From IMG/VR virus record IMGVR_UViG_3300045988_153230: a stretch of 49,189 nt of DNA; one strand, 5' to 3'. Positions within the stretch are counted from its first letter, which is position 1. Each line of letters starts with the position of its first letter. A model generated the notes under the pieces. The model did no database searches. It saw only the letters and a program-made list of their open reading frames with translations, and was not told where the DNA came from. This stretch comes from a virus (lineage: Duplodnaviria > Heunggongvirae > Uroviricota > Caudoviricetes). This document shows positions 31,267-48,555 of this stretch, piece after piece. The translations under genes were made by a program, and so were the position numbers.

Positions 31267-31383
31267 CGGGTTATCTCCGGTTTAACCAGGGCGGGTATCG
31301 CTCGGTTTCGGGTATAACCTTAGGAAATTTTTTCCCACCTGTAAAGCACTTTTTATATAAATCTATAATTATATAATTCTATA
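31267..31383 (-). promoter_or_regulatory. Conserved ~115 bp promoter/leader cassette, copy 1
   Basis: Near-identical to 38340..38452 and 48439..48555; contains AT-rich palindromes (TATAATTATATAATT) and the RBS (GGAGATAACCCG-ATG on minus strand) of the downstream gene. Confidence 0.6.
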
Positions 31384-31966
31384 CCACTTGCCAGAGAGCA
31401 TCATGCAACTGGATACCTCCATTGCACTGGTTGCCCCAGCCATGCCAGCCATCAGGTAAATCACCGCGAGCAAACAGCTCAATACGAGGAACATCGCCTA
31501 ACAGCTTTACCAGCTTGTCACGGACCACATCAGGCTTCCGAGAATGCTCCAGACGAGGCGATGTAAACGACTGAATGATCCCCGCATCAAGACGGGTCGG
31601 CAGTTTGCCTTTTACCGCAAACAAGCAATCTTCACTGTTTGCACGAGTCATATGCCCCATCCCCATCACCAGCTTATCTGGTTGTCGGCTACCACATTTG
31701 TTCCATGTGAAGCCCTTCATGGTCATCAGCCTGAATCCCCATGCTTTCACCACCAGCAACGCTTCTTCTGGCTGAGTCGGAACCCACCACATGGCCAACA
31801 AACACGATTCAGGATTAGCAAGCTGCCAGACAGGAATACGAGCAATATCCTCAGCTTTCATCGTTGGATACTTAAAACCAGCGCCACGATTCCCATCCTT
31901 ACACTTGTCTTTGTATTCCCAGGGGGGATCTGCATAAATCAGATTAAACAATGCAATTGCCTCCAT
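31379..31966 (-). CDS. DNA N6-adenine methyltransferase, MT-A70 family
   Basis: 195 aa; N-terminal LIYADPPWEY motif (DPPW) typical of MT-A70/phage Dam-like methylases. Confidence 0.8.
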   Translation of the reverse strand: MEAIALFNLIYADPPWEYKDKCKDGNRGAGFKYPTMKAEDIARIPVWQLANPESCLLAMWWVPTQPEEALLVVKAWGFRLMTMKGFTWNKCGSRQPDKLVMGMGHMTRANSEDCLFAVKGKLPTRLDAGIIQSFTSPRLEHSRKPDVVRDKLVKLLGDVPRIELFARGDLPDGWHGWGNQCNGGIQLHDALWQVV

Positions 31967-32274
31967 GTTAGTTGTGTCTCCGGCGCTTATCTCCGGCAGT
32001 CATAACGCTGGCCAGCTCTACAGCAAACACAACGAAAAGGGCACTAACCAGACTGATTAATGCCCTTGCCTGTTGTGTGCCGGATATCGCCCGACAACGC
32101 TGTTTTGGTAACACGGCTACAGTTCCGCGCCGCTCCAGCTTTTACCCCTTTGCGGATAACAGGCCCTGCCTGTAACTTAGCCCCACGTTCGCCCGAAATG
32201 CGCACCAGGCACGCATAAAGATGAGCACGAAGGAAGTAACTCCACCGCGCTTATCTTTATGTGTGAGAGTGAAT

Positions 32275-32350
32275 TGGTGGCCCCTACCGGATTTGAACCG
32301 ATGACCGTGCGATTATGAGTCGCCAGCTCTAACCACTGAGCTAAGGGGCC
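32275..32350 (-). tRNA. tRNA with CAU anticodon (Ile2/Met type, ileX-like)
   Basis: Minus-strand sequence GGCCCCTTAGCTCAGTGGTTAGAGCTGGCGACTCATAATCGCACGGTCATCGGTTCAAATCCGGTAGGGGCCACCA folds by eye into acceptor, D, anticodon (loop CTCATAA) and T arms with encoded CCA; the 5' half matches E. coli ileX as I recall it. Confidence 0.85.
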
Positions 32351-32519
32351 ATATTTGATCTGTTTGTCTGGTGTGGCGCCGCGCACGAAAATCCCAGCCA
32401 ATAAATTCAGGATTTTTGGGCGCGGCGGCATATCAGACAAACATGGTTGATGCGTGCGCTCATGAGAAAAGCGCATAGAATGTTGTAACTATATATTTAT
32501 ATAATTATAGAAATATATA

Positions 32520-32729
32520 TTACTTGGGGCAGTTGATTTCCCATGCCCTGTTATGAGCCAGAATATCTTTCTTTGTCTGGCGGTCCATAACATCGATATC
32601 GTGATCAGTCAGGTAGATGGGCTTTACCCAATCACAGGCGGTATCAACCACCACCGGGACGCTTCCACGACTCCCGCAGCTCGCGATCAACATCGTCATC
32701 AGCCATATGGTTAACACTCTGCTGTACAT
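32520..32729 (-). CDS. Rz1-like outer-membrane lipoprotein (o-spanin)
   Basis: 69 aa; signal plus lipobox-like LIASC; overlaps the 3' part of the Rz-like ORF in another frame. Confidence 0.6.
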   Translation of the reverse strand: MYSRVLTIWLMTMLIASCGSRGSVPVVVDTACDWVKPIYLTDHDIDVMDRQTKKDILAHNRAWEINCPK

Positions 32730-32922
32730 TCCCCACCTCTTTTGTCACTTCTATACGCCGCTCCGCAGTGGCTTTTACGGCGGCTGCTTTCTCATTAATG
32801 CGCTGCTTTTCAGCTTCATCTTCGGCCTTTTCTCGCCCCTTCATACGACCAAAACCAAACGCGCCGAATGCAACCAATATAATTGTGCCAATAAATGACA
32901 AAACGGCCTTCAAACCAGTCAT
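32644..32922 (-). CDS. Rz-like i-spanin
   Basis: 92 aa; N-terminal transmembrane segment then charged coiled-coil; ATGA overlap with the endolysin stop. Confidence 0.6.
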   Translation of the reverse strand: MTGLKAVLSFIGTIILVAFGAFGFGRMKGREKAEDEAEKQRINEKAAAVKATAERRIEVTKEVGNVQQSVNHMADDDVDRELRESWKRPGGG

Positions 32923-33461
32923 ACCACCACTCGCTCTTTCATCCAGCCGTAGACAAACGACTCATTCGCCTCGCGCTTCTCCGCCAACTCCAGATAGCGT
33001 TCGCCCTGCGTACAGTTCAGCGACGTCAGCATCACCCGTTCGCCGTCTTTTCCCCGATTCCCAAGATAAGCACGCAGCGCATTAATGGTACGTGGACCGA
33101 TTCGTCCATCTGCATCCAAATCGGGATACAGCTTCCCACGCAGATTGAACACATTCAGCCAGCGTTGAAGCATTTTGGACGCCACTGTTGGCCCCATATT
33201 CACACCGGTATCACACAGCTCTGCGGCAATATCAGAGGATAATGCGGCCACCTGATCAAAGCGTGGTCCGTACCAGTAATCAGCCTCAAGGATTTCTAGT
33301 GCCTGTTCGCGGGTTAAATCGCGCATATCGCCACGGTATCCATGAGCACGGGCAGTGTTCTGAGTAATGCCCCACTTTGTTGGGCCTCCCTTGTCGTCAG
33401 GGTGATCCACATAGCCGCCCTCTTTTCCAAGAATGCTGTTAAAAATCTCATCTTTGGTCAT
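32919..33461 (-). CDS. Endolysin, GH108-type lysozyme with peptidoglycan-binding domain
   Basis: 180 aa; N-terminal ILGKEGGYVDHPDDKGGPTKWGIT motif characteristic of GH108 family endolysins. Confidence 0.8.
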   Translation of the reverse strand: MTKDEIFNSILGKEGGYVDHPDDKGGPTKWGITQNTARAHGYRGDMRDLTREQALEILEADYWYGPRFDQVAALSSDIAAELCDTGVNMGPTVASKMLQRWLNVFNLRGKLYPDLDADGRIGPRTINALRAYLGNRGKDGERVMLTSLNCTQGERYLELAEKREANESFVYGWMKERVVV

Positions 33462-33744
33462 GATTAAATCCTAATGCGTCAACTATCCGCGCCAGATTGC
33501 CCCTGAAATACAGAACAACGATGCAGATAATCAGATTTCCAATAACCACCAGCCAGTGGGATTCTTGATAAAGACCGAACACATAACGGAAGGGAACATT
33601 GGCGTATACAATGACGTAGATATAAGCCAGAAAGGAAACAAATGGACGATGCCTGGAGTCTTTCCGTCGATAAAGCATCAGCGCCATTACTATTACTGTG
33701 CAAAGCACCGCATTAATCAGTGCTGACGGGTCACTGCTTACCAT
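33448..33744 (-). CDS. Membrane protein, probable holin/antiholin
   Basis: ~98 aa from ATG at 33744 (strong GGAGGGGG RBS) with three hydrophobic segments; immediately upstream of the endolysin. Confidence 0.55.
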   Translation of the reverse strand: MVSSDPSALINAVLCTVIVMALMLYRRKDSRHRPFVSFLAYIYVIVYANVPFRYVFGLYQESHWLVVIGNLIICIVVLYFRGNLARIVDALGFNHDQR

Positions 33745-34126
33745 TTGAACCCCCTCCACGTAAGCGGGAAAGCATTCCAAAGATGCTACCGAGATCCTGG
33801 CTGTTTACGAACGTGAGGATTTTAATGGTCAATGCAGCCACAATAACCGCACCAAGCGCATCCAGAGGACGATCGTTGTAGCTGGTCCATTTGGCAAGAA
33901 ATGAGCCAACTAACGGCGCTCCAATCACTCCAACAATGAACGATGTAAAGAAATAGCCAATCAGCTTGAGACGGCTAATATTCACCGCTGTAGCAACATA
34001 GAAAACAGCGCCAGCAAATGCCCCGAATACAACGCCGTAATCAATACCAGTTGCAATACCAAAAACGCTGGCACCCATCAGGCCACCAGCAGCAACGGCC
34101 GTACCGGAAATTGGTTCTGCTGACAT
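33731..34126 (-). CDS. Putative holin
   Basis: 132 aa from ATG at 34126 (GAGGA RBS), multiple Gly/Ala-rich transmembrane segments; first gene of the lysis cassette. Confidence 0.6.
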   Translation of the reverse strand: MSAEPISGTAVAAGGLMGASVFGIATGIDYGVVFGAFAGAVFYVATAVNISRLKLIGYFFTSFIVGVIGAPLVGSFLAKWTSYNDRPLDALGAVIVAALTIKILTFVNSQDLGSIFGMLSRLRGGGSNGKQ

Positions 34127-34139
34127 TGAAATCCTCGTT

Positions 34140-34169
34140 AAAAAAAAGCCCCGCCGAAAAAGGCAGGGC
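34140..34169 (-). terminator. Rho-independent terminator just upstream of the holin gene
   Basis: Minus strand GCCCTGCC-TTTTTC-GGCGGGGC followed by T8, ending ~15 nt before the holin RBS. Confidence 0.55.
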
Positions 34170-34503
34170 TTCATAAAGCAACAAATTACGCGGTAATCGC
34201 TTAACGCAGTTTTACTACGTTAAATGAAACACTACACCCAGTTACCACCTAAAACAAGGTTTTCCCACAAAAAAACCTTCATATCGTGGTTAATTGATCG
34301 ATAAAAAAGCAATGTTCAACTTTTTACCAACCGAACATCCCGACCAGGACTTCCATAATATTCGCCGATATGCCACTGCTTAAGTTGAGTAATCTTCTCC
34401 AACATAACTCCCATAGAGTCCAGTTTCTGCCATGTTTTCGGTTGTATGTGCTTCATTACCCGCTCTGAATATCTGAATACTGCTCGTAGCCTCGCTAAAT
34501 TGC

Positions 34504-35361
34504 TCACTTGTCGCCTCCTTTACGAATCTGTTCCGCCCATTCCCCAAGAGATTTCTCCGCATATTCACCGGACAGGCCATCAATCGGGTGCGGTTCATTA
34601 GCCAACTCTTCTTTCGCTGACAAAATCATGCGTGTAACGTCGAAAACTTCAGCCAAAGGCTTATTGATAAATCCGTGATTGAACGCAGCAGCAAGACGGC
34701 TGGCGGTATAGTTAATCCCCTCGTTGCGTGCTTCCGCACGTACTTCAGCAAGGAAAGCATCGGTGGCTGGGGTTTCGACATTAGGTCGAAGCTCATAATC
34801 ACAAACTCTTTCAATCCATGGTGATACTCTGTCGCATTTCCTCTTCTTGCGTTCACCGACCTTGGTTGCCTGCTGAATAATTACCCCCCAGCAAATGCTT
34901 TCGACCTCTTCGCTCCATCCATCGCAAGCATCGCCTCTATAGTCGTCAATTGCAGCCTCAGCAGCAGCGATAGCCTCCTCAGCAGTTTTGTGACACTCGA
35001 AACTAAATTCAGAGCCATATGAGAAATACATAGCCCCGGCCTTAAGCCCCGCATTCTCCGCCGCCAGCGCCGCACGACAGGCCTCCAGTTCAGCAATACG
35101 CTTGTTTTGGGCTTCCCGCTCATCCAGTAGTGCCAAAGCAACCTTTGGGTTGAACGCGGCAACATAACGAGCGTTGTTCTCTGCATTTTTCTGTCCATCA
35201 AAGCCGGTCCATTTGATAACGTCTTCACATCGTTCATCACCGGGCGTGTGCACCGCATAAGTACCAGTATCCGTCGAAATAAATGCGACCCATTCGTCTG
35301 GTGTTGCCTGTTTTGCTATCTCACGCAGCGCCTGATAATTAATTGCTGTGCTGTTAGTCAT
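34504..35361 (-). CDS. Ead/Ea22-like protein
   Basis: 286 aa from ATG at 35361 (GGAG RBS); Ala-rich coiled region (...ELEACRAALAAENAGLKAG...) and overall pattern resemble lambdoid Ea22-like proteins as I recall them. Confidence 0.55.
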   Translation of the reverse strand: MTNSTAINYQALREIAKQATPDEWVAFISTDTGTYAVHTPGDERCEDVIKWTGFDGQKNAENNARYVAAFNPKVALALLDEREAQNKRIAELEACRAALAAENAGLKAGAMYFSYGSEFSFECHKTAEEAIAAAEAAIDDYRGDACDGWSEEVESICWGVIIQQATKVGERKKRKCDRVSPWIERVCDYELRPNVETPATDAFLAEVRAEARNEGINYTASRLAAAFNHGFINKPLAEVFDVTRMILSAKEELANEPHPIDGLSGEYAEKSLGEWAEQIRKGGDK

Positions 35362-35695
35362 TCCAAGACTCCAGCTCTGTTTCAATTTCTTTATCGATCT
35401 CATCGTTTGTGGCTTCTTCATCCAGATGGTCACGAGCCTCTTTACGATACTTTTCTCTATGCGCTTCATACCAGTTAGAAAACTCCGGCGACCAGCCTGT
35501 GTCCTTGCCGTCGTAGTCAAACTTGGCATTTTTCTCAGCCATGCTTTCAACCATGTTTTCAGCCGTAATAAGCCCCAATTCACGCATCCCACGCAAAAAA
35601 CTTTTACGCATGTGAGGGCTAACTTTCGAATCACAAACAGGCTTAAATTTGACTTCCCAACGGCGAATACAACGTGCATTAAGTGATTTGTTCAT
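35354..35695 (-). CDS. Hypothetical protein
   Basis: 113 aa, acidic C-terminus; operon context. Confidence 0.5.
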   Translation of the reverse strand: MNKSLNARCIRRWEVKFKPVCDSKVSPHMRKSFLRGMRELGLITAENMVESMAEKNAKFDYDGKDTGWSPEFSNWYEAHREKYRKEARDHLDEEATNDEIDKEIETELESWND

Positions 35696-35697
35696 AG

Positions 35698-36294
35698 TTA
35701 TGCTTCCTGAATACGCTTAAACTCAATTACCCATACCCACGGGTTAGATAGCCAGTTCTCTTGCCCGTAAATACCGCGCCAGATATCACCAAAGCCAACG
35801 CGATAAACAGCTTCCGGCGGTGTAATCTTGTACGTCGCCGGAGATGCGCCTTCCGCTTTAGCATCTGCCTCGCTCATGTCATGCAGCCGTTCCACACGCA
35901 CGTCGGTTATTTCCAACAGAATACGGCTGGCCCAACGTGGCATGTGAATTGATGGGGTCCAACCCTCAGCTGGCTTGCTACTATCTGAGTAATCAGCCTT
36001 GTAATCACACAGTTCAGAAGCCAGAGAGACACCATCTTTGATTTCCTGAATGACATCGTTATCCAGCCAAAAAGCGTTGAATGTTTCACGTACCCATATG
36101 CGATCACCAACGTTACCGAACGGACATAAACCATGTTTCGGTGCATCCATAACATGGGTACAGACACCATTGCGTTTCTTTGTCGGTTTACTGATAACCA
36201 GGCAGTTATCCGCCCCGACATTTTTTACAGGTCGGCGAGTCTGCGTTTTCCTTCCTTCGAGGATGGCCCGGACCATCTCATCGTTAAAAATCAT
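35698..36294 (-). CDS. Conserved phage protein (N-terminal MIFNDEMVRAILEGRKTQTRRP motif)
   Basis: ~198 aa from ATG at 36294; the N-terminal motif recurs in lambdoid prophages but I cannot name the family. Confidence 0.5.
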   Translation of the reverse strand: MIFNDEMVRAILEGRKTQTRRPVKNVGADNCLVISKPTKKRNGVCTHVMDAPKHGLCPFGNVGDRIWVRETFNAFWLDNDVIQEIKDGVSLASELCDYKADYSDSSKPAEGWTPSIHMPRWASRILLEITDVRVERLHDMSEADAKAEGASPATYKITPPEAVYRVGFGDIWRGIYGQENWLSNPWVWVIEFKRIQEA

Positions 36295-36550
36295 GCCGCG
36301 CTCTTTCACTCTCCCTCCCACGTTTTCAGACTTTCACCACAAAACGGGCAAAATGAAACTCGAATCGGTGATTTAGAAAACTCACCGGAACGCAACATCA
36401 CCAAATCAGGTCCACGGGTTAAACTCTCATTCCAGATTTTGTATAGCAGTAAGCCTTTTCTTACTGAGCATTCAGCATCACGCTCAAGAGACTTTGCCAA
36501 TGCAGCACACGGCTCTATTCGATTGCCATTAATTCGACAATTTGATCCAC

Positions 36551-36916
36551 TCACTTCAACTCCTCCCGACGACGTTCCTGAAGCTCTAGCATTGCGGCTC
36601 GGAAATCCTGCCACCACTCCTCATCTGCAACGGGGGTGTTCCGCTCCAGCACCTTGTCCGCATCTGCGATCAGATTTGCCAGACTCTTGTCTGAAATCTT
36701 CGTTACCGGAGTCGTTGGTTGCTCAACCTGCCCGATAGGTTTTATCGTGCTCAAAAGGAGGCGACGGCTGGAAAGTGGCGACCCACAACGGCGCCCATCT
36801 TCCTTGCGATATGTTTCTTTCGGACCAACACACCAAGTTGTCGGCGTTTCGCGTAACTTCACTTTTTTCTCACCATCAATGGTGATGATTATTCCGGTAT
36901 GGGTTTTGATGCTCAT
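36551..36916 (-). CDS. Hypothetical protein
   Basis: 121 aa, ATGA overlap with the upstream gene. Confidence 0.45.
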   Translation of the reverse strand: MSIKTHTGIIITIDGEKKVKLRETPTTWCVGPKETYRKEDGRRCGSPLSSRRLLLSTIKPIGQVEQPTTPVTKISDKSLANLIADADKVLERNTPVADEEWWQDFRAAMLELQERRREELK

Positions 36917-37194
36917 GCCACAGCCCCTCTCAACGGCTTAACTTTGGCTAATAAGGCGTTAAACAACATGGAGTTAGAATTCATGCCAAATGGCAATTCC
37001 GGTTTAGCGGAGTAGTACAGGCAACCATTTATTTTCCTGGTTGTTATCTGTCCTTCGGCAACCATGCTTCTCAGTCTGCAACGCATAGAGTTCTGCGACA
37101 CACCAATGTGCTCCGCGATTACGTCCACTTTTGAACATGGGTGATCGGTCAGGAAATTAATCACATCTTGGGGGTTAATAATTTTGCGTTTCAT
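36913..37194 (-). CDS. Winged-helix DNA-binding protein, FaeA-like
   Basis: 93 aa from ATG at 37194 (AAGGA RBS): ...VINFLTDHPCSKVDVIAEHIGVSQNSMRCRLRSMVAEGQITTRK...; AT-rich palindrome motif immediately upstream. Confidence 0.5.
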   Translation of the reverse strand: MKRKIINPQDVINFLTDHPCSKVDVIAEHIGVSQNSMRCRLRSMVAEGQITTRKINGCLYYSAKPELPFGMNSNSMLFNALLAKVKPLRGAVA

Positions 37195-37271
37195 TGTCGA
37201 GGCGTCCTTATACATTTATATAAATATATAATTCTATATACAGCGGGAGACATCCCGCCGTATGCTTACTG

Positions 37272-38339
37272 TCAGGCTTTCAATAGCGATTCTTTCAGAT
37301 ATCGGGCATCAGCCAGGGCGTTTGGAGTAATCTTGCGAACCCATGCATTACGGGTTGGACTCCACTTAAAGGCGCGTGATTTAAGCAGCGAACGAATGTT
37401 TGCCTCTGGTTTGCCAGGGAAATAAAACAGGATGCGGTTATCCTCTGGATCTATCTCCATAGAAAAGCCGTCGTATTCTTCGCGCTGTGCTCCTGTTACA
37501 GACTTGACCGATTCAAGCTCCTTAATACGGCTCTGTAGTCGTTTGATTTCGGCGTTATTGTTGCTCAGTGCGTATGAAGGGAATCCGATGCGCCCACAGA
37601 AATCTCCGGCCAGTAACTCTTTGGCTTCGCTTTCTGTAAACCTGAGATCGATTAATGCAGAAAGCTGCTGTAATTGGTCTTTTTTGTATTTGCGAATGGC
37701 CTTATTTGCGGCCTTCATTTTGACGTGTGACTTCATGCAGCCTTGCAGCTTACGAAGCAACTTAAATAGCGCATCAGGATCATCAGACGAAATTCCATTA
37801 CGACCAACACCTGCGGCTTTGCTCTCGTAGTGTGATGCTTTACTTTCGCATTCAACAAACGCTTTTCTGAATAACGCATCAGCTTTAGACAAACGGCGGC
37901 GATGGCCTTTCGCGCTATAATGGTCAACTAAAATCGGCTGGCCTAACGGGATCACATCCAACAGGTCATGCGCTCGCTTATGCGCTACCGCTCCTTCTTT
38001 TCTGGCTTTTTCTGCACGAGCAATATATCGGGCAAGACGCGCGTTCTGGCGTTCCTGATAGGTATTTACGTAATCATCTCCGCGCTGCTGCTGTTCAAGC
38101 CATGCTTTGCGCAGCTCTTCTGTTACGTCCACCAGCTCCGCAGGGATACAACCTGTTTGGGCTTCATAAGAGTAACCATCCTCATAGATGCGCCCATCGT
38201 CTTCAACAAAGAAAAAGGTTTCGTGCTCATCGCTTTTGACCATACGACCATTAACATGGCGTAATAGGTAGCCAGTATCAGTGCTTAACAGGCTGTTAGG
38301 GTTGTTGATCCAGTCAGAAATAATTACTTGTTTATTCAT
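37272..38339 (-). CDS. DUF3560-like phage protein
   Basis: 355 aa with C-terminal ...RAFKWSPTRNAWVRK...; first gene after cassette copy 2. Confidence 0.5.
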   Translation of the reverse strand: MNKQVIISDWINNPNSLLSTDTGYLLRHVNGRMVKSDEHETFFFVEDDGRIYEDGYSYEAQTGCIPAELVDVTEELRKAWLEQQQRGDDYVNTYQERQNARLARYIARAEKARKEGAVAHKRAHDLLDVIPLGQPILVDHYSAKGHRRRLSKADALFRKAFVECESKASHYESKAAGVGRNGISSDDPDALFKLLRKLQGCMKSHVKMKAANKAIRKYKKDQLQQLSALIDLRFTESEAKELLAGDFCGRIGFPSYALSNNNAEIKRLQSRIKELESVKSVTGAQREEYDGFSMEIDPEDNRILFYFPGKPEANIRSLLKSRAFKWSPTRNAWVRKITPNALADARYLKESLLKA

Positions 38340-38452
38340 CAGATTTCTCCGGTTTAACCAGGGCGGGTATCGCTCGGTTTCGGGTATAACCTTAGGAAAT
38401 TTTTTCCCACCTGTAAAGCACTTTTTATATAAATCTATAATTATATATTTAT
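38340..38452 (-). promoter_or_regulatory. Conserved ~115 bp promoter/leader cassette, copy 2, in late-promoter position downstream of Q
   Basis: Near-identical to copies at 31267..31383 and 48439..48555; lies directly 3' of the Q-like gene, where lambdoid phages place P_R'/qut. Confidence 0.6.
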
Positions 38453-38508
38453 ATATTTTCGATGTTCCCGATGTCTACACACCATCAAAACAGCTCAAAA
38501 TGACACTT

Positions 38509-40878: not shown

Positions 40879-40996
40879 ACCACGATATGTGGTATTAAAA
40901 CCACATATCGTGAGTTTTTCAATGGGCGAAACAAAAAATAACCTTCTATTTGTGGTCCACCTCTCGTCTTACCATGTGAAAACCACTAAATGTGGT
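40879..40996. promoter_or_regulatory. Divergent promoter/operator region with three ACCAC-N5-GTGGT-type sites
   Basis: ACCACGATATGTGGT (40879..40893), ACCACATATCGTGAG (40900..40914, forming a 12-bp inverted repeat with the first), ACCACTAAATGTGGT (40982..40996), between the divergent early operon and the repressor gene. Confidence 0.55.
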
Positions 40997-41732: not shown

Positions 41733-41747
41733 ACCACGCTTTGTGGT
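41733..41747. promoter_or_regulatory. Operator-like palindrome ACCACGCTTTGTGGT
   Basis: Same ACCAC-N5-GTGGT architecture, upstream of ORF 41783..42157 and the par genes. Confidence 0.45.
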
Positions 41748-42157: not shown

Positions 42158-42195
42158 CTGCAAGCGGGCTAACGCCCGCTTATATGATTATAGAT

Positions 42196-42284
42196 TTATA
42201 TAATTATATAAAACGCTTTTCATCCGCCAAAAAGTTGGTTATGCTTACCTCGTTCTATAAATATAGATTTATAGAATTATATAA
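42196..42284. repeat. AT-rich palindromic repeats upstream of parA (candidate centromere/operator)
   Basis: Perfect 16-bp palindrome TTATATAATTATATAA (42196..42211) and variant TTATAGAATTATATAA (42269..42284), plus ATAGATTTATA direct repeats; a further copy sits between parA and the RHH gene (42962..42974). Confidence 0.5.
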
Positions 42285-42307
42285 CCAAACACATGGAGTC
42301 TCGACAA

Positions 42308-42961
42308 ATGACTATCTCTGTAGGTATTTTCAACGGAAAAGGCGGCGTAACCAAATCAACAATTGCCCGTGCTTTAGCAGTTGCTTATGCAAAGGCTGGC
42401 TGGAATGTATGCCTGATCGATATGGATGTGCTTAACGGAACGGTAACGCGTTGGGTACAACGCAGAATGGCCAACAATATCGAACCAGCAATCGCGGCGC
42501 AGCCGTGCGGCACACCATCACAAGTCCAGAAAATCATCGAATCAGAAATATACGACCTGGTTATCGTCGATGGCGGTGCCTACGCATCTGAATCAGTACC
42601 GAAGCTCTCTGAATTTCTGGATATGGTTATTTTGCCAACCAGATTCTCTACCGATGACCTGGAAACCACCGTTAACACAGCTCACGGCATCGTTAAAAAG
42701 GGTGTACCAATCAAGAAAATTTGCATGGTGTTTTCCGGCGCGGCTGAAAACGAAGCTGACTATATTGAAGCCCAAGAGTACCTGGCTAATACGCCATACT
42801 TTGTTGTCGATAAGTACATTCCCCACAAGCCAGCTCTGAGCAAAGCTCAGGATAAGGGCTTAAGCCTCATTGAGTGCTCATACGTTGCGCCACGCAAAAA
42901 GGCAGACGACGTTATTCAGGGGATTATCAACCAGCTTGAGGCTCTGACTACTGCCGCGTAA
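42308..42961 (+). CDS. parA: ParA-family partition ATPase (type Ib, ParF-like)
   Basis: ~217 aa from ATG at 42308 (GGAG RBS): MTISVGIFNGKGGVTKSTIA... deviant Walker A near the N-terminus. Confidence 0.8.
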   Translation: MTISVGIFNGKGGVTKSTIARALAVAYAKAGWNVCLIDMDVLNGTVTRWVQRRMANNIEPAIAAQPCGTPSQVQKIIESEIYDLVIVDGGAYASESVPKLSEFLDMVILPTRFSTDDLETTVNTAHGIVKKGVPIKKICMVFSGAAENEADYIEAQEYLANTPYFVVDKYIPHKPALSKAQDKGLSLIECSYVAPRKKADDVIQGIINQLEALTTAA

Positions 42962-43004
42962 TATATAATTATAGTTTTATAGATTTATATAAGAGGGGAT
43001 ACAC

Positions 43005-43253
43005 ATGGCCGCACCATCAAAACCACCAAAGAAGAACAGCAAAGGCGTACCGCCATCGATCGAACAACCGCAGGTTTTCGACCCGACTGAAACGCCAACC
43101 AGAACCAAATCAGGTGGGGCACAAATGGCGTTTAACGTCGACCCTGAATTTAAACGCGAGTACAAAACGTTCGCCAGCTCAATGGATATGTCATTGAAAG
43201 AAGTGCTGACAAAATCTTTTGAGTTACTCAAGGCTCAATACAACCAGAAGTAA
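43005..43253 (+). CDS. Ribbon-helix-helix centromere-binding protein (ParG-like)
   Basis: 82 aa; Pro/Lys-rich flexible N-terminal tail and C-terminal ...MAFNVDPEFKREYKTFASSMDMSLKEVLTKSFELLKAQ... with RHH-like beta-alpha-alpha pattern; directly downstream of parA. Confidence 0.65.
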   Translation: MAAPSKPPKKNSKGVPPSIEQPQVFDPTETPTRTKSGGAQMAFNVDPEFKREYKTFASSMDMSLKEVLTKSFELLKAQYNQK

Positions 43254-43503
43254 GAGAAGGTGACGGCCTCCAGCGCCAACTGTTGGCCGTCGCGACACAA
43301 CAAGGGGAATTTGTTATGTCCGAGCAACAATATACACGGTTACTAAAAACTCGTCTAATAGACCTCAAACGGCTGCAAGCTGGTCGCTTATTTGCCCTGC
43401 TATCCACCAGGCCAGAATGGGTACGTGAAGCAGTTCTGAAAGGCTTAATGCGCTCAAGCGTTTAAATTCAACCATAAAAAAGGCCCCCGAAGGGGCCTAA
43501 TCG

Positions 43504-43626
43504 CTACTTGCTGCTAATGTTTATCGTCACATTCAGAGCGTTATCAGTAATCTTCCAACCCTCCCCATGTGGCGTAAACAAAGCTCCAGTAACAACGATA
43601 AAAATACACATGTAGTATTTTTTCAT
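43504..43626 (-). CDS. Small hydrophobic protein (40 aa), candidate type I toxin-like peptide
   Basis: ATG at 43626: MKKYYMCIFIVVTGALFTPHGEGWKITDNALNVTINISSK; a bidirectional hairpin (GGCCCCTTCGGGGGCC, ~43478..43500) follows on the minus strand. Confidence 0.4.
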   Translation of the reverse strand: MKKYYMCIFIVVTGALFTPHGEGWKITDNALNVTINISSK

Positions 43627-43940
43627 TGTGTGGCCCTTACAGGCCGTTTCACGGCATCCCCACCGACGAAAATGACGCGAGAGCAAGCACGCTGTTTGTG
43701 CCTGCGTGGTACGGCAAGTGGATAATCCTTTCCTGAAAGTCAGTGCCCGGGTGCGAATCGGCGGAAAGGCCCCAAGCCATATTACACGTCATACCCTTCA
43801 TAATGAAGGAATAAAAAACGCTTTTATTACATAAGATTACACGTAAATAAGTTAAAAACCTTCATTTTGCATGAGCTAATGAGCTAAATTTTTTTATATG
43901 AATAGTGGACTATTCACCTCAGTTGGGTAAGAATGTAGTT

Positions 43941-44044: not shown

Positions 44045-44597
44045 TTTCTCCCCCTTCCTTCCCAAATGATTCAAATGTTAATGAGAGTGAATCATTTGAT
44101 ATGTTCGATTTAGCGCCGTTATCGACCCAATTTCTGTATGCTTCATCACAACAGTACCTTACAGCAGTTGGAGTAACAGGGATGCCGCCCCCAAATGAGA
44201 ATCCCATTGAGCTAATGCTAACTCTTTCGAATGGCCTATTTCTCAATGCTTCAAACCCCTTGCTATTAAAGTAACGCAGCATCAGAGGTAAAAGGTTATC
44301 CTCGTCCTGACTGATTGTTCCAGGGAAAAAGTAGTAACCATAACGGTTAAATTCGGGAATAAGATTTTCTACCAATGACATGAAATTCACTGGAGTAATA
44401 TTAAGGGCTGTGAAAGCACCAAAAAGGGCGTCAACTGTTAATACAGACTGCCCGTTCTCTATCTTTGTCCATGCGTTTGGTGTTTTTCCAGCAGCTTGAG
44501 CCAGCACTCCTTGATGCACACCTCTTTCTAGCCTAAGTTCTTTTATGATCATTAGGTGAATTGTTGAAAAACATGAGTTTTTTGACTGTTCAATCAT
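44025..44597 (-). CDS. HTH-domain protein with uncharacterised C-terminal domain
   Basis: 190 aa; N-terminal XRE-like HTH (...IKELRLERGVHQGVLAQAAGKTPNAWTKIENGQSVLTVDALFGAF...); C-terminal ~110 aa unrecognised. Confidence 0.55.
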   Translation of the reverse strand: MIEQSKNSCFSTIHLMIIKELRLERGVHQGVLAQAAGKTPNAWTKIENGQSVLTVDALFGAFTALNITPVNFMSLVENLIPEFNRYGYYFFPGTISQDEDNLLPLMLRYFNSKGFEALRNRPFERVSISSMGFSFGGGIPVTPTAVRYCCDEAYRNWVDNGAKSNISNDSLSLTFESFGKEGGETKKPSF

Positions 44598-45046
44598 TTT
44601 TTATCCCCATACTGAATTTTTTCTTGTTCCCGACTTTAACAAAATTCCACAACTCAGGACTGATTGATTCCCTACAGGAACTATACATTCCCATTTTTAG
44701 CATATCAAGAAAATTAAAAGCCCCGCATTCAAACCCACACTATGTGGTTTAGTCTGTTAAAATCCCTCTGTATTGACATAAATGCGCCATTGGTGGACAC
44801 TTTCCGAGCCGTAGCAAAATCTACGGTCGGGATTGGAACCCCGATAATCATCATGGCGCATACCGCGTTAGCGGTTTTTTTATGCGTAAAGCACTGCTAC
44901 ACCCAAATTATGGTGGGGCGTGCGGGGGAGTCGTAAGACTCGCCGGATTCCATGGTGACCGGTAGTTCCAACCCTGTACGTCTCACCACCCAATGATTGG
45001 AACCAGACGGTGGTGAGTATCCTTAACCTTTAAGGGAACTATCACC

Positions 45047-45238
45047 ATGACAAACTTACCCCATGACTATTACGTCAACCTCGTAAAGATCCTTCTCAAG
45101 AAAGCCTCATACGCCGATAAATTCCGCCTGGCTGAAATCATCGAGCGCGAAGCTATGCGCATCGCCAGCAACGATAACGCTGTTTCTGACGCAAAAATCT
45201 CCCTCGTAACCAAAGTAGTTATGGGAGGTGCAAAATGA
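45047..45238 (+). CDS. Hypothetical small protein upstream of antirepressor
   Basis: 63 aa, ATGA overlap with the downstream gene. Confidence 0.45.
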   Translation: MTNLPHDYYVNLVKILLKKASYADKFRLAEIIEREAMRIASNDNAVSDAKISLVTKVVMGGAK

Positions 45239-46416
45239 AAACGCTTCCGACCGTTAACACCCTACAGCCTATCCTGCATAACCAAATCCCCGTTATCACT
45301 ACTGAACTACTGGCAAAGCTATACGGCACAGACGTTGATAACATCAAAAAAAATTACTCACGTAACGCAAACCGCTTTATTGAAGGAAAGCATTTTTTCA
45401 AAGTGGCTGGCGATGAGTTAAAAACTTTGCGAGTGACTTTAAGTCACTCACAAAATTTGCGACTGGTTTTAAACGAGTCACAAAATGAGGTGCAAATTTC
45501 CCCCAAAACTCGCTCTCTCATCCTCTGGACAGAACGCGGGGCTGCACGTCACGCCAAAATGCTTGAAACTAACCAAGCGTGGGATGTGTTCGAACGGCTG
45601 GAAGACTGCTACTTCAACCAGAACGCGCAAACGGCCGCGACCGTTACCGTCTCGCCAAACAATGCTCGTGAGGTTGTCGATACGCTCAACGCCAAACCGA
45701 TGTTTTACATTAAAGTGTGCAACAACGAGCCACTCACAACCTCAGCCGATGTTGCCCAGGCATTCAGCACCACAAACAATTCCATCGTTATGGCCATCGA
45801 TGCGCTACGCATTCCTCGCACGGCTGCGGCGCGTCACTTCTTTAAAGAGCAACGACCGCTGGAAGGAAGCGACCGCGAAATAACAATCTATCGCATGACA
45901 AAAGACGGATTTACCTTACTCATGGAGAGCATCGACGGTCCAAGCGTGAAAGATATCAAGCTGGCCTACATTGAAGCCTTTAACGCTATCAGCAGCGTGT
46001 TAAAAACACAGTACGAGCGTGATCTGGCTAAACGACTGTACCAGGAAAAAACGATTATCCGCGCGGCAACAGAGCATAATCGGCTATTAACGGAACCGAA
46101 CTACAGGAAGGAACTAATCAAGGAGTTTGACAAGGCAACAGGGAAAACCAAAGCGGCGCTAAATCTGCCAGCAATGACTCAGGAAAATGTGATATCAGCC
46201 TTACTTCTTGATCTGCTCAGAAACGCCAGAGCACTGATCAGCTTTGACGAAAACCTGAATCCTCAGCTCAAGCTACTACCACCGACAGGCAAAGTAGTCG
46301 ACCAGGCAGATCACAACAGCATACTCAGCGTACTGGATGCAAACCTACCAGCCAGGACACTACAGGAACTGATAAAGATATCGGCGGATAAACTGGCCGC
46401 AGGTGCAAAACCATAA
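45235..46416 (+). CDS. Antirepressor-like protein (ORF6N and Rha-like domains)
   Basis: 393 aa; N-terminal ...PVITTELLAKLYGTDVDNIKKNYSRNANRFIEGKHFFKVAGDELKTL... (ORF6N-like) and central ...NAKPMFYIKVCNNEPLTTSADVAQAFSTTNNSIVMAIDAL... (Rha/antirepressor-like). Confidence 0.65.
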   Translation: MKTLPTVNTLQPILHNQIPVITTELLAKLYGTDVDNIKKNYSRNANRFIEGKHFFKVAGDELKTLRVTLSHSQNLRLVLNESQNEVQISPKTRSLILWTERGAARHAKMLETNQAWDVFERLEDCYFNQNAQTAATVTVSPNNAREVVDTLNAKPMFYIKVCNNEPLTTSADVAQAFSTTNNSIVMAIDALRIPRTAAARHFFKEQRPLEGSDREITIYRMTKDGFTLLMESIDGPSVKDIKLAYIEAFNAISSVLKTQYERDLAKRLYQEKTIIRAATEHNRLLTEPNYRKELIKEFDKATGKTKAALNLPAMTQENVISALLLDLLRNARALISFDENLNPQLKLLPPTGKVVDQADHNSILSVLDANLPARTLQELIKISADKLAAGAKP

Positions 46417-46450
46417 AACAAAGCGCCCGATTTGGGCGCTTCTTCAATTC

Positions 46451-47086
46451 TTAATATTTCGGTGTAATCAGTAGCGACACGAGCCCTGATTTGTCACGAG
46501 AAACGTAATACTCGCCTCTCTTAGTCTTAAACTCAGCTTTCTGCGTATCAGATTTAACAATCTGCTCTAACTGCGCGATCACTGTGTCTCTATCACTTGA
46601 TGCATCCAAGACTTCAACAGCTACGGCCATAGAAAGCAAGGAATCAGAGCTAGGCTTAGATACTCGCCATAATAACTCTGAAATCTTCCCATCCTTATCA
46701 ACTCTAGCTCGACCGTTAACAGATGAATTGATGGCAAATTCAACGATGTTGTTACCTTGTTTAACTGACTTAATTCTTATAGTGGAGGTGGATTTTCCTG
46801 ATGTAGCGATACCTTCAAGGTCATCATTATATAGCTGCTTAAACTTATCTACGGTCACGCCATCGAAAGCAGCTCCGGTAGTAGCCGTAGTGCCGGAGTC
46901 TTCTGGAATCAAGGCCACAGCAGCAAGAGTATTAACAACAACAAAAGTAGCAATCCCAAGAAACCCACTCACTAAAACAGCTTTGAACTTACTACCAGAA
47001 GATGGGCCACATTGTTTCCGATATGCACCACGAACTACGAAGAAACACAAAATCAGGCTAATAATAAACGCCACCAGCATCCCCAT
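46451..47086 (-). CDS. Membrane-anchored protein of unknown function (candidate superinfection-exclusion/surface protein)
   Basis: 211 aa; two N-terminal hydrophobic segments then a Ser/Thr-rich soluble domain; poly-C tract in the upstream region (47149..47162). Confidence 0.5.
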   Translation of the reverse strand: MGMLVAFIISLILCFFVVRGAYRKQCGPSSGSKFKAVLVSGFLGIATFVVVNTLAAVALIPEDSGTTATTGAAFDGVTVDKFKQLYNDDLEGIATSGKSTSTIRIKSVKQGNNIVEFAINSSVNGRARVDKDGKISELLWRVSKPSSDSLLSMAVAVEVLDASSDRDTVIAQLEQIVKSDTQKAEFKTKRGEYYVSRDKSGLVSLLITPKY

Positions 47087-47721
47087 AGAAATCTCCTTTT
47101 AGATATAAGGGTAAAGCAATATCGTATTGGATCTTCCTTTAGACACAACCCCCCCTCCCCCCATACAGGGTGCCCTTTACCGGAGTTCCGGCCCCTTCTC
47201 AAAAGCATCAAAAAAAGCTCGAGATCGAGTACCGGAACTCATGCCACCAGATAGCTCCACATCGTTTCCAATGCTTCGCCGCCGTGTGCGCCCTGTGGCC
47301 CACAATCATGCCATTGGTCGTCTGATATACCTTCTTCTGCTCATAGAGCACAGGCGAGTTGTCGCACTCCTGCCTTTCTCAGACTCGACTTAGTTTAGAT
47401 CGCTGTTCCTGGCTTGCGTCAGCACACTTTCCCCTTGTACGCATACCCGCGCGCCACTTCGCCCAAAAACACCGAACCCAACGAAGTGGCAAAGACAACG
47501 ACGCGAGCGTGAGTCTGAAATGGGCACCAGTAAAAAAGGGGTTGCAGGCGCAAAAAGATTTGATTATCTTTAGACGCAAGAAAGCCGCCCCAATCAAGAG
47601 GTGTCTTTTTAAATCCAGCCTACCAAGCAAGATTTAAATTTCAGACTGAAAACCGCCCGGCAAGGCGGTTTTTGTCTTTCTGGCGCTTACATTACACCAC
47701 CATAAAACGATCCGTAAAGGA

Positions 47722-47994
47722 TCATTTGATCCCTTGTTCCAATTCTGACGACACTTTAACCTTTTCCCATACAAGGGTTTGCAGCCTTAACAGAATCGCG
47801 TCTTTATCAAGGTGTGAAAGATCCTTCACCATATCGTCAAACGACAGAACGCGAATGGCCATCTCAATGACCCTCGGCGGCTCCCCCTTCTCATATCGCT
47901 TATATGTAGCCAACGATATCCCAAATTCTTCGGCGGCTCGCTCCTGCGTCCAGTTCATCCCACGACGCCATAATTTCAATTCATAACCCGTCAT
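47722..47994 (-). CDS. XRE-family HTH regulator
   Basis: 90 aa from ATG at 47994 (GAGGAGG RBS): MTGYELKLWRRGMNWTQERAAEEFGISLATYKRYEKG... Confidence 0.6.
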   Translation of the reverse strand: MTGYELKLWRRGMNWTQERAAEEFGISLATYKRYEKGEPPRVIEMAIRVLSFDDMVKDLSHLDKDAILLRLQTLVWEKVKVSSELEQGIK

Positions 47995-48020
47995 AGCATC
48001 CTCCTCGCACAATATTAACA

Positions 48021-48047
48021 CTCGCAAAGTGTCAAAATGACACTTTG
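48021..48047. promoter_or_regulatory. Perfect 12-bp inverted repeat (operator-like) upstream of the HTH regulator gene
   Basis: CGCAAAGTGTCA-AAA-TGACACTTTGCG, ~25 nt upstream of the ATG at 47994. Confidence 0.45.
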
Positions 48048-48057
48048 CGTATTGTGT

Positions 48058-48438
48058 TTACTTAACGAGGAATAAAAATGGTTTATTGTTCGGCGGTGTA
48101 ATCGGGGCTGGCTCGCTTTTGCTCATGCGATCAGTGTACCAGGCCAACTCCTTGTCAAAGTAAGCCTGATTAAAATAGGCCATGAATGTAGTTTCAAATC
48201 CATAACGACCGCTAATACGCAGCATCTGATTGCCGTTCTCTGTTTCCAGATATACCTGGGCACGTTCCTGATTCTCCTTCAGCCAGGTTAAAGCCTCATC
48301 GCATGAGGACACACGATACTCATCATCGTAGCAGTCATCGATGCGGCTTGAGGAAGAACGGCAAATCACGCCAACAGAACCAGCCAGGATAGTTTGAATT
48401 TTAAGGAAAGCGTTTTTGCGGATTTTAATCATGCTCAT
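48058..48438 (-). CDS. Hypothetical protein (126 aa), first gene after cassette copy 3
   Basis: ATG at 48438 with the cassette-supplied RBS; its middle part (48278..48332) is duplicated at window positions 1..55. Confidence 0.55.
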   Translation of the reverse strand: MSMIKIRKNAFLKIQTILAGSVGVICRSSSSRIDDCYDDEYRVSSCDEALTWLKENQERAQVYLETENGNQMLRISGRYGFETTFMAYFNQAYFDKELAWYTDRMSKSEPAPITPPNNKPFLFLVK

Positions 48439-48555
48439 CGGGTTATCTCCGGTTTAACCAGGACGGGTATCGCTCGGTTTCGGGTATAACCTTAGGAAAT
48501 TTTTTCCCACCTGTAAAGCACTTTTTATATAAATATATAATTATATAATTCTATG
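48439..48555 (-). promoter_or_regulatory. Conserved ~115 bp promoter/leader cassette, copy 3
   Basis: Near-identical to copies 1 and 2, including TATATAATTATATAATT palindrome and RBS/start context. Confidence 0.6.

What the first reader, a model, noticed from the sequence alone, without database searches (positions are those of the whole stretch)
31351..48555. Dispersed family of AT-rich palindromes (consensus TTATATAATTATATAA) at eight or more sites, including the par region
A perfect 16-bp palindrome at 42196..42211 and close variants occur upstream of parA (42269..42284), between parA and the RHH gene (42962..42974), in all three promoter cassettes (about 31365..31379, 38414..38450, 48524..48555), upstream of the FaeA-like gene (37211..37240) and upstream of the tRNA (32489..32522). 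The distribution resembles dispersed centromere/operator sites of some phage-plasmids, where a partition protein also modulates promoters. Alternatively these are strong overlapping -10 elements.
Basis: partly seen in the sequence, partly recalled or inferred. Interest (0 to 1): 0.55.

Follow-up and report, generated by a model that had tools for sequence, protein, structure and literature searches.

The report
Partition-protein binding arrays across a phage-plasmid
Eight identical-format DNA arrays (four 8-bp TTATATAA-like units each) mark the partition genes and several phage promoters of this E. coli-type phage-plasmid and are most likely the docking sites of its small ribbon-helix-helix partition protein, which would tie plasmid inheritance to phage gene control.

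Summary
The motif is not a loose 16-bp palindrome. It is eight arrays of exactly four tandem 8-bp units (WT[A/C]TA[T/G]AW; T2, T4 and A5 invariant in 32/32 units). There are no partial arrays anywhere else in 49 kb, against 0.005 expected by shuffling. Two arrays sandwich the parA promoter and one abuts the ribosome-binding site of the gene after parA. Three lie 7 nt upstream of the -35 of a 120-bp promoter/leader cassette repeated three times. One abuts the RBS of a MarR/FaeA-like gene and one lies upstream of tRNA-Met. The 82-aa protein after parA belongs to an uncharacterised ribbon-helix-helix family remotely like ParG. In eight related elements the same architecture recurs. The unit sequence switches in concert at par and at dispersed sites, and it tracks the predicted DNA-facing ribbon residues. 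An ordinary plasmid with only the ParA-RHH pair also has the arrays. The best reading is a type Ib, omega/ParG-like centromere-plus-operator regulon. Binding, centromere activity and the sign of regulation are inferred, not shown. The '-10 element' alternative is rejected. Novelty: a new variant of a known kind.

The parts
42180..42211 (+). Array A of the par locus: TTATATGA TTATAGAT TTATATAA TTATATAA. It starts directly after a terminator hairpin (42164-42179) and ends 5 nt before the putative -35 of the parA promoter.
42217..42245 (+). Putative parA promoter: TTTTCA (42217-42222), 17 nt, TATGCT (42240-42245), sandwiched between arrays A and B. Inferred by analogy with relatives (TTTACA-17-TATGCT in L130, TTTACA-17-TAAGCT in L003).
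   Evidence: inference
42253..42284 (+). Array B: TTCTATAA ATATAGAT TTATAGAA TTATATAA. It starts 7 nt after the putative -10 and ends just before the parA RBS (GGAGTCTCGACAAATG).
42308..42961 (+). parA: a 217-aa Walker-type ATPase (GKGGVTKST) with no N-terminal DNA-binding domain, i.e. type Ib size.
   Evidence: CbiA/ParA/MipZ Pfam hits; PHROG 164 ParA-like; annotated ParA in relatives
42961..42992 (+). Array between the parA stop codon and the RHH gene: ATATATAA TTATAGTT TTATAGAT TTATATAA. It directly abuts the RBS GAGGGG.
43005..43253 (+). 82-aa candidate centromere-binding protein. It has a disordered basic N-terminal tail (conserved K..KG.PP motif) and a C-terminal strand-helix-helix (QMAFNVD; helices 47-59 and 62-79), predicted ribbon-helix-helix.
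31353..31384 (-). Array at the upstream end of promoter cassette 1. In transcription orientation it reads GTATAGAA TTATATAA TTATAGAT TTATATAA.
31263..31352 (-). Cassette 1 promoter and leader: -35 TTTACA (31340-31345), a 17-nt spacer holding the inverted repeat GGGAAA-AAA-TTTCC, -10 TAAGGT (31317-31322), a leader of about 50 nt, GGAG, and ATG at 31266. It heads small genes that lead into the ParB/Srx-methyltransferase and packaging genes.
38425..38456 (-). Array at the upstream end of promoter cassette 2.
38335..38424 (-). Cassette 2 promoter and leader (-35 at 38412-38417, -10 at 38389-38394). It heads the DUF3560/primase-like gene 37272-38339.
48525..48556 (-). Array at the upstream end of promoter cassette 3, directly downstream of a terminator hairpin (48565-48587).
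48435..48524 (-). Cassette 3 promoter and leader (-35 at 48512-48517, -10 at 48489-48494). It heads the 126-aa gene 48058-48438.
37208..37239 (-). Array abutting the RBS/start (GGACGCCTCGACAATG, ATG at 37194) of the MarR/FaeA-like winged-helix gene 36913-37194. It follows a hairpin at 37243-37259. This is the same 'array + GGAnnCTCGACAA(A)TG' layout as at parA.
32489..32520 (.). Array about 140 nt upstream of tRNA-Met (32275-32350, minus strand). Its orientation relative to a promoter is unclear.

Best explanation
The eight arrays are the cognate DNA sites of the 82-aa ribbon-helix-helix protein encoded just after parA; together with the small ParA they form a type Ib partition system. By analogy with MetJ, ParG and omega, each 8-bp unit is proposed to bind one RHH dimer through its beta-ribbon, so four dimers would coat each 32-bp array cooperatively. 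The three arrays at par would autoregulate parA and the RHH gene: one lies upstream of the -35, one covers the start region, and one abuts the RHH RBS. These arrays would also serve as the centromere, with the basic N-terminal tail of the bound protein stimulating nucleoid-bound ParA. The same four-unit module has been placed 7 nt upstream of the -35 of three copies of a promoter/leader cassette that head phage operons. It also sits at the RBS of a MarR-like regulator gene and upstream of a tRNA. The partition protein would therefore also act as a global regulator of these units, most likely a repressor in the plasmid state, and every site would add to partition-complex mass. What is shown: the array anatomy, its statistics, its positions, and its co-variation with the par module across relatives. 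What is inferred: binding, stoichiometry, centromere activity and the sign of regulation.
For: 1) Anatomy and statistics: there are eight arrays of exactly four units, none partial, against 0.005 expected. 2) The arrays are the only repeat family in the par locus and they sandwich the putative promoter. 3) ParA is small and Walker-type. 4) The downstream protein has no Pfam hit itself. Of 82 distant relatives found by exhaustive HMMER, 35 hit RHH_10, 21 hit Antitox_RHH and 5 hit ParG. The family profile's top three PDB hits are all RHH proteins, though none is individually significant: SvtR 2kel E=0.056, ParG 1p94 E=0.14, antitoxin 7e4j E=0.98. hhalign against ParG gives 66% probability and E=5.7e-5 across the whole domain. 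The AlphaFold monomer shows a disordered tail plus two helices. 5) Concerted switch: the Salmonella relative keeps TATA-type arrays at homologous sites. Two Serratia phage-plasmids with the same gene order and homologous cassettes have all their arrays (par, three cassettes, RBS-adjacent) built from T[A/C]TTTA units and none of TATA type. Vibrio, Halomonas-like and three metagenomic relatives use TTC[G/T]TTAA units in the same array-promoter-array-RBS-parA-RHH layout. 6) Predicted DNA-facing ribbon residues (positions 40/42/44) track the unit: Q-A/S-N with TATATA, A/P-N-N with TmTTTA, S/P-N-K with TCkTTA. In RHH proteins the ribbon sets specificity and the helical backbone sets site spacing (PMC3413123). 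7) L129, a contig with a T4SS coupling protein and no phage genes, has the ParA-RHH pair and the arrays around it. This ties the arrays to the par module rather than to the CI-like repressor, orf124 or the MarR-like protein. 8) The CI-like repressor has a different candidate operator family, ACCAC-N5-GTGGT, at the early/immunity promoters. 9) Precedent: omega of pSM19035 binds repeat arrays that overlap three promoters and double as parS, and needs at least four contiguous repeats for full ParA activation (PMC9499535). ParG binds one dimer per 4-bp box separated by 4-bp AT-rich spacers (PMC3130281).
Confidence: 0.72

Rival explanations
1. The arrays are operators of the RHH protein acting purely as a transcription factor. 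Only the par-proximal arrays, or none, act as centromere, and the dispersed arrays contribute nothing to partition.
For: The dispersed arrays sit at fixed positions relative to promoters or RBSs. The ordinary plasmid L129 has arrays only around par within the 20 kb held, so the par arrays suffice for partition there.
Against: In pSM19035 the same arrays are both operators and parS, and four contiguous repeats are enough to activate ParA (PMC9499535). Every array here has exactly that minimal number. Nothing in the sequence distinguishes par arrays from dispersed ones.
Confidence: 0.18
2. The arrays are bound by a different element-encoded regulator, such as the MarR/FaeA-like winged-helix protein (36913-37194) whose gene is preceded by an array, or one of the HTH proteins. 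The RHH protein would recognise something else.
For: The array abutting the MarR-like gene's RBS looks like an autoregulatory operator. All regulators diverge together between the E. coli and Serratia elements.
Against: L129 carries the arrays around ParA-RHH with no phage regulators nearby. The arrays are the only repeats in the par locus. Tandem 8-bp units are typical of RHH proteins, not of winged-helix or HTH dimers (established knowledge: MetJ metboxes; ParG in PMC3130281). The CI-like repressor has its own candidate palindromes.
Confidence: 0.05
3. The arrays are protein-independent AT-rich promoter elements (overlapping -10 hexamers or UP elements), or sites for host nucleoid proteins such as H-NS, IHF or Fis.
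For: They are 90-100% AT, contain TATAAT strings, and in the cassettes occupy about -43 to -74, where UP elements act.
Against: Other AT-rich DNA in the window shows no such pattern. The periodicity is strict at 8 bp, three positions are invariant, and the length is exactly four units. The unit sequence switches in concert between elements, and relatives use TTCGTTAA units that resemble neither a -10 nor an UP element. The cassettes have a separate -35/-10 conserved between E. coli, Salmonella and Serratia elements. Three arrays abut RBSs with no room for a promoter.
Confidence: 0.04

Closest known systems
Omega (ParB) / delta (ParA) of pSM19035 (Inc18, Firmicutes): a type Ib partition system with a global-regulator CBP
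   Same: Small Walker ParA plus a small RHH protein with a flexible N-terminal tail. Arrays of short contiguous repeats, one dimer per repeat. The arrays overlap several promoters, so the partition protein is also a global regulator. At least four contiguous repeats are needed for full ParA activation, and every array here has exactly four units (PMC9499535, PMC4627068).
   Different: Units here are 8 bp (TTATATAA-like, palindromic), not 7-bp WATCACW heptads. There are four units per array instead of 7-10. There are eight sites spread over 17 kb of a Gram-negative phage-plasmid, at phage operons, a tRNA and a regulator gene, and none at the replication gene. There is no detectable sequence similarity to omega. 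Function is untested.
ParF/ParG/parH-OF of plasmid TP228 (type Ib)
   Same: ParA-like ATPase followed by an RHH protein with a mobile N-terminal tail. Centromere and operator are made of short boxes with an 8-bp register (4-bp box plus 4-bp AT-rich spacer), one dimer per box (PMC3130281). There is remote profile similarity over the RHH domain.
   Different: The window protein does not reach the Pfam ParG threshold. The recognised sequence is different and lies in AT-only DNA. The arrays are quantised at four units and dispersed, whereas parH/OF are single sites upstream of parF.
N15 prophage-plasmid SopAB with four dispersed IR centromere sites
   Same: A phage-plasmid whose centromere sites are scattered through the genome rather than clustered (PMC7205306, citing Ravin and Lane 1999).
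   Different: N15 uses a type Ia system (large SopA; HTH ParB-family SopB) and single 16-bp-type inverted repeats, not an RHH protein with tandem 8-bp arrays.
MetJ repressor and tandem 8-bp metboxes (from established knowledge, not tested here)
   Same: An RHH dimer per 8-bp palindromic unit, with two to five units in tandem and cooperative binding. This is the same geometry as the TTATATAA arrays.
   Different: MetJ is a chromosomal metabolic repressor with a SAM co-repressor. It has no ParA partner, no N-terminal tail and an unrelated sequence.
KorB/IncC of RK2 (from established knowledge)
   Same: A partition protein with about a dozen operator sites dispersed over the replicon, acting as a global regulator.
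   Different: KorB is an HTH ParB-family protein that binds 13-bp palindromes. RK2 is not a phage-plasmid.

Membership tests
Type Ib ParABS partition system | Small Walker-type (deviant Walker A) ParA lacking an N-terminal DNA-binding domain | tested here: met
   217 aa; GKGGVTKST at residues 10-18; Pfam CbiA, ParA, MipZ and AAA_31 hits; PHROG 164 ParA-like.
Type Ib ParABS partition system | Small non-HTH centromere-binding protein (typically RHH) encoded immediately downstream of parA | tested here: met
   An 82-aa gene starts 44 nt after parA. The RHH assignment comes from family-level profile hits (35/82 relatives hit RHH_10, 5 hit ParG), from the top PDB hits all being RHH proteins although individually weak, from hhalign to ParG with E=5.7e-5, and from the two-helix model. 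The evidence is remote, not a direct domain hit.
Type Ib ParABS partition system | Centromere of iterated short repeats next to or upstream of parA, overlapping its promoter | tested here: met
   Arrays at 42180-42211 and 42253-42284 bracket the putative promoter. They are the only repeat family in the locus. The same layout occurs in eight relatives.
Type Ib ParABS partition system | The CBP binds the repeats, stimulates the ParA ATPase, and the cassette stabilises a plasmid | not testable with these tools
   Needs EMSA or footprinting, an ATPase assay and a plasmid-stability assay.
ParG family (Pfam PF09274) | Sequence match to the ParG profile at the curated threshold | tested here: not met
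   The window protein has no Pfam hit at E<=0.01. Only 5 of 82 distant relatives touch ParG weakly. The profile against 1p94 gives E=0.14. The protein is therefore ParG-like in architecture but is not filed as a ParG family member.
Omega-type global regulator/centromere (pSM19035) | Arrays of contiguous repeats in several promoter regions of the same replicon, with at least 4 contiguous units per site | tested here: met
   Eight arrays of exactly four units. Four are placed just upstream of a -35 (P_par and three cassettes) and three abut an RBS.
Omega-type global regulator/centromere (pSM19035) | 7-bp WATCACW heptads; control of the copy-number gene (copS) and of a toxin-antitoxin operon | tested here: not met
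   Units are 8 bp and read TTATATAA-like. No array lies in 1-31352, where repA lies. Cassette 3 lies next to, but not in front of, the RelE/antitoxin pair. In Serratia L004 one array does sit in the divergent region next to a PemK/MazF TA operon.
N15-type dispersed centromeres | Type Ia SopA/SopB (HTH ParB) with single inverted-repeat sites scattered in a phage-plasmid | tested here: not met
   Dispersal in a phage-plasmid is shared, but the proteins are type Ib/RHH and the sites are tandem arrays.

The most novel reading that the evidence does not exclude
The RHH partition protein is a second master regulator of the phage-plasmid. Each four-unit array would be both a minimal centromere and an upstream operator. 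Assembly of the partition complex and silencing (or timing) of the replication, lysis and packaging operons headed by the three cassettes would then be one physical event. Dilution, titration or loss of the partition protein would feed directly into the lysis-lysogeny decision. This design would be conserved, with re-tuned specificities, across phage-plasmids of Escherichia, Salmonella, Serratia, Vibrio and Halomonas.
Probability: 0.25. Interest if true: 0.75.

Novelty: new variant of a known kind. Interest (0 to 1): 0.6.

Why it matters
Phage-plasmids are common in Enterobacteria. About 60 near-identical plasmids of this element exist, including one in E. coli ATCC 25922, yet how they coordinate plasmid maintenance with the phage programme is largely unknown outside P1 and N15. 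This element appears to use an omega/ParG-like ribbon-helix-helix partition protein from a family annotated only as 'unknown function' (PHROG 6024, no Pfam). Its sites are built to a strict four-by-8-bp format and planted at phage promoters. If confirmed, this would give a Gram-negative, phage-borne counterpart of the pSM19035 omega regulon. It would also provide a natural series of ribbon/operator specificity variants useful for studying RHH recognition, and a compact 32-bp centromere/operator module. The four-unit quantum matches the experimentally defined minimum for ParA activation by omega, which makes a general rule for RHH centromeres testable.

Full report
**What the window is.** The par region is 97-99% identical to three Yersinia phages (vB_YpM_39/41/44, about 49 kb). 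It is also 97-99% identical to about 60 circular plasmids of about 48 kb from E. coli, E. albertii, E. fergusonii and Klebsiella, including one in E. coli ATCC 25922, and about 80% identical to three Salmonella plasmids. Annotated relatives carry RepA, ParA, a RelE-type toxin-antitoxin pair, a CI-like repressor, a Rha/ORF6N antirepressor, lysis genes and P2-like tail genes. The window is therefore a phage-plasmid.

**The observation.**
With up to 3 mismatches the 16-mer gives 20 overlapping matches against 0.51 expected, all between 31353 and 48556.
- Read in register, the matches resolve into eight arrays, each of four tandem 8-bp units: 31353, 32489, 37208, 38425, 42180, 42253, 42961 and 48525, each +31.
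- T2, T4 and A5 are invariant in all 32 units. Position 3 is A or C, position 6 is T or G (one C), and position 7 is A in 29 units.
- Eight arrays score at least 23/24 core positions. Dinucleotide shuffles give 0.005 arrays even at 21/24. The 23 other AT-rich segments of the window have none. In pure A/T sequence the chance of 23/24 or better is about 1.5e-6 per position (my arithmetic).
- No 2- or 3-unit fragment occurs anywhere else, and the units flanking each array score at most 3/6. The arrays are quantised at exactly four units.
- TATAGA variants face the direction of transcription in most arrays and TCTATA is their reverse complement, so the arrays have an orientation.

**Where the arrays sit.**
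- At par the order is: terminator hairpin (42164-42179), array A, 5 nt, TTTTCA, 17 nt, TATGCT, 7 nt, array B, RBS, parA (42308-42961). A third array fills the gap between the parA stop codon and the RBS of the 82-aa gene (43005-43253).
- Three arrays form the upstream end of a 120-bp repeat (92-98% identical). On the minus strand this repeat reads: array, 7 nt, TTTACA, a 17-nt spacer with an inverted repeat, TAAGGT, a leader of about 50 nt, GGAG, ATG.
- In the Salmonella relative the cassette -35 is unchanged, the -10 is TATGGT and the leader has diverged. This supports these hexamers as the promoter. The arrays therefore occupy about -43 to -74 (inferred).
- The cassettes head three units. 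The first runs from small genes into the ParB/Srx-methyltransferase and packaging genes. The second starts with a DUF3560/primase-like gene and is followed by regulatory and lysis genes. The third is a 126-aa gene plus an HTH gene.
- The seventh array abuts the RBS of a MarR/FaeA-like gene. The flanking sequence (GGACGCCTCGACAATG) resembles that at parA.
- The eighth array lies about 140 nt upstream of tRNA-Met.
- None lies in the structural-gene half or at repA.

**The proteins.**
- ParA is 217 aa with a deviant Walker A box and no extra N-terminal domain, as in type Ib systems.
- The 82-aa protein has no Pfam or PDB sequence hit and sits in PHROG 6024, 'unknown function'.
- An exhaustive profile search found about 100 distant relatives of similar size. 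Of 82 of them, 35 hit RHH_10, 21 hit Antitox_RHH, 8 hit 56B_RHH and 5 hit ParG.
- The family profile's only PDB hits are three RHH proteins in the correct register: SvtR, ParG and an antitoxin. All are weak, with E from 0.056 to 0.98. hhalign against ParG gives 66% probability and E=5.7e-5 over the whole domain.
- The N-terminal K..KG.PP motif is the best-conserved part outside the fold. By analogy with the ParG and omega tails it is the likely ParA-contacting element (inference; PMC3130281, PMC9499535).

**Comparative test.**
- The Salmonella element (L002) keeps TATA-type arrays at the homologous positions although flanks are only about 80% identical. Substitutions fall at the variable unit positions.
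- Two Serratia phage-plasmids (L003, a P2-like myovirus; L004, a lambda-like siphovirus) share the gene order CI-like repressor, orf124 homologue, ParA, RHH (41-44% identity), and have homologous promoter cassettes. There every array is built from a different unit, [A/T]T[C/A]TTTA[A/T] in both orientations. This holds for the two arrays flanking P_par, the one before the RHH gene in L003 (L004 has only a 12-nt gap there), three cassette arrays and one RBS-adjacent array. No TATA-type array is present, and the window has no TTTA-type array.
- Five more distant homologues were traced to contigs: a Vibrio parahaemolyticus 38.6-kb element, a Halomonas-like 39.9-kb element, two further phage-like contigs, and L129, a contig with a T4SS coupling protein and no phage genes.
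- These contigs show an array, a promoter and a second array before the RBS of parA-RHH, built from 8-bp TTC[G/T]TTAA-type units. The full four-plus-four layout is clear in L128, L129 and L130. L130 repeats the window's layout almost exactly, including four units before the RHH gene and TTTACA-17-TATGCT. In L127 and L131 the downstream par array is shorter or degenerate.
- The phage-plasmid-like contigs have extra arrays inside their early operons. L129 has them only around par within the 20 kb held.
- The arrays therefore travel with the ParA-RHH pair, not with the phage regulators, and they change in concert at par and at dispersed sites.

**Ribbon-unit co-variation.** Alignment to ParG puts M41, F43 and V45 on the core side of the strand and residues 40, 42 and 44 on the DNA side (inference from RHH structures).

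| Ribbon residues 40/42/44 | Unit core | Elements |
|---|---|---|
| Q-A/S-N | T[A/C]TA[T/G]A | window, Salmonella |
| A/P-N-N | T[A/C]TTTA | Serratia L003, L004 |
| S/P-N-K | TC[G/T]TTA | Vibrio, Halomonas-like, metagenomic contigs |

The 8-bp spacing is constant throughout. This fits the experimental finding that the ribbon sets specificity and the helical backbone sets spacing (PMC3413123).

**Other regulators are accounted for separately.** The CI/early divergent region has no array but carries ACCAC-N5-GTGGT palindromes. This family (8 matches against 0.66 expected) also occurs between the CI gene and orf124, upstream of repA, and upstream of the isrK/C4 RNAs. The cassette spacers carry yet another inverted repeat, TAGGAAA-N3-TTTCCyA. 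It also occurs in a fourth promoter at 1018-1034 that has no array. The arrays are thus one of at least three dispersed cis-element families, and the one tied to par.

**Mechanism proposed.**
- One RHH dimer per 8-bp unit and four dimers per array would bind cooperatively, as for MetJ metboxes (established knowledge), ParG boxes (PMC3130281) and omega heptads (PMC9499535).
- At par, occupancy of arrays A and B would bracket RNA polymerase and autoregulate the operon. The bound tails would activate ParA on the nucleoid and so segregate plasmids.
- For omega, four contiguous repeats is the experimentally determined minimum for full ParA activation (PMC9499535). Every array here has exactly four, so each could be a minimal centromere.
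- At the cassettes the array covers the UP-element/alpha-CTD zone just upstream of the -35. Repression is the simplest expectation. Omega, however, activates at partial occupancy and represses at full occupancy (PMC4627068), so the sign is open.
- Shown: the anatomy, statistics, positions and co-variation. Inferred: binding, stoichiometry, centromere activity and regulatory sign.

**Comparison and novelty.**
- The system works like a type Ib ParA/RHH system with an omega-like global-regulator role, and it shares with N15 the scattering of centromere-like sites through a phage-plasmid (PMC7205306).
- It is not a member of the ParG Pfam family (threshold not met). It lacks omega's heptads and copy-control target, and it is not type Ia like N15.
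- No paper on this family's partition system was found in the library.
- I rate it a new variant of a known kind. It combines an uncharacterised RHH partition-protein family, a strict four-by-8-bp site format, and a regulon reaching into phage operons, conserved with re-tuned specificity across several genera.
- Interest is 0.6. Confidence in the central claim, that the arrays are the RHH partition protein's sites, is about 0.7-0.8.

Noticed in passing
window 31263-31382, 38335-38454, 48435-48554 (minus strand): A 120-bp promoter/leader cassette is present three times (92-98% identical). It has an identical -35 (TTTACA), spacer, -10 (TAAGGT) and a leader of about 50 nt ending at the ATG of three unrelated genes. 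Homologous cassettes, also in three copies, occur in the Serratia phage-plasmids L003 and L004.
   Followed up: partly
window 31321-31337, 38393-38409, 48493-48509 and 1018-1034: The inverted repeat TAGGAAA-N3-TTTCCyA lies inside the 17-nt spacer of the three cassette promoters. It also lies in a fourth promoter-like site (TTGCCA-17-TACCAT) upstream of gene 700-999 (minus strand) that has no array. There are 4 matches against 0.27 expected. It is probably the operator of another, unidentified regulator.
   Followed up: partly
window 2644-2658, 40879-40893, 40982-40996, 41733-41747, 44734-44748 (and weaker copies): The palindrome family ACCAC-N5-GTGGT gives 8 matches against 0.66 expected. It is concentrated in the divergent region between the CI-like repressor gene and the early operon, after the CI gene, just upstream of repA, and upstream of the isrK/C4 RNAs. 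These are likely operators of the CI-like repressor, dispersed somewhat like P1 C1 operators.
   Followed up: partly
window 44808-44881 (+), 44906-44993 (+), 45235-46416 (+): Rfam hits to isrK (70 bits) and to the P1/P7-type C4 antisense RNA (84 bits) lie directly upstream of an ORF6N/Rha antirepressor gene. This looks like a P1 immI-like (c4-ant) immunity module in a non-P1 phage-plasmid.
   Followed up: no
window 43476-43774 (minus strand): A full-length Rfam match to ryfA RNA (135 bits) lies just downstream of the par operon. It may be a type I toxin-like small RNA/peptide locus serving plasmid maintenance.
   Followed up: no
window 1-109 versus 48278-48332 and 49131-49189: Bases 1-55 are identical to 48278-48332, and bases 51-109 match 49131-49189 (98%). 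The left end therefore looks like the right end with about 800 bp deleted (cassette 3, the antitoxin and part of the RelE-like toxin gene). The window ends inside the toxin gene. This may be an assembly or terminal-redundancy artefact, or a deletion variant in the population.
   Followed up: no
window 42164-42179, 48565-48587, 37243-37259: Several arrays start immediately after a GC-rich terminator-like hairpin, so the T-rich first unit could double as the terminator's U-tract. The same is seen in the relatives L002, L003 and L004. The order terminator, array, promoter looks like a self-contained insulated module.
   Followed up: partly
L005 (Y. pestis pTP33) about 26342-26420; L006 (Erwinia tracheiphila plasmid) about 12109-12190: A more distant homologue of the RHH protein (75 aa, ribbon LNFKVS) follows a small ParA in another phage-plasmid type. 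Upstream of that parA are several TCAC-containing repeats (CATCACT, TTTCACC, ATTCACT, TATCACC) reminiscent of omega's WATCACW heptads, with irregular spacing.
   Followed up: partly
window 6867-7259 and 12617-12901: Two sets of in-gene tandem-like repeats in the structural region: three copies of a 93-nt segment (77-84% identical, spacing 168 and 132), and three copies of a 45-nt segment at 120-nt spacing. They are probably repeated protein domains in tail or fibre genes.
   Followed up: no
window 37195-37207 and 42285-42310; L003 38092-38107; L004 27713-27728: The sequence between array and start codon, GGA(G/C)nCTCGACAA(A)TG, is shared by parA and by an unrelated gene (the MarR/FaeA-like gene in the window) in three different elements. 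This suggests the par operator-RBS module was copied to a second gene.
   Followed up: partly
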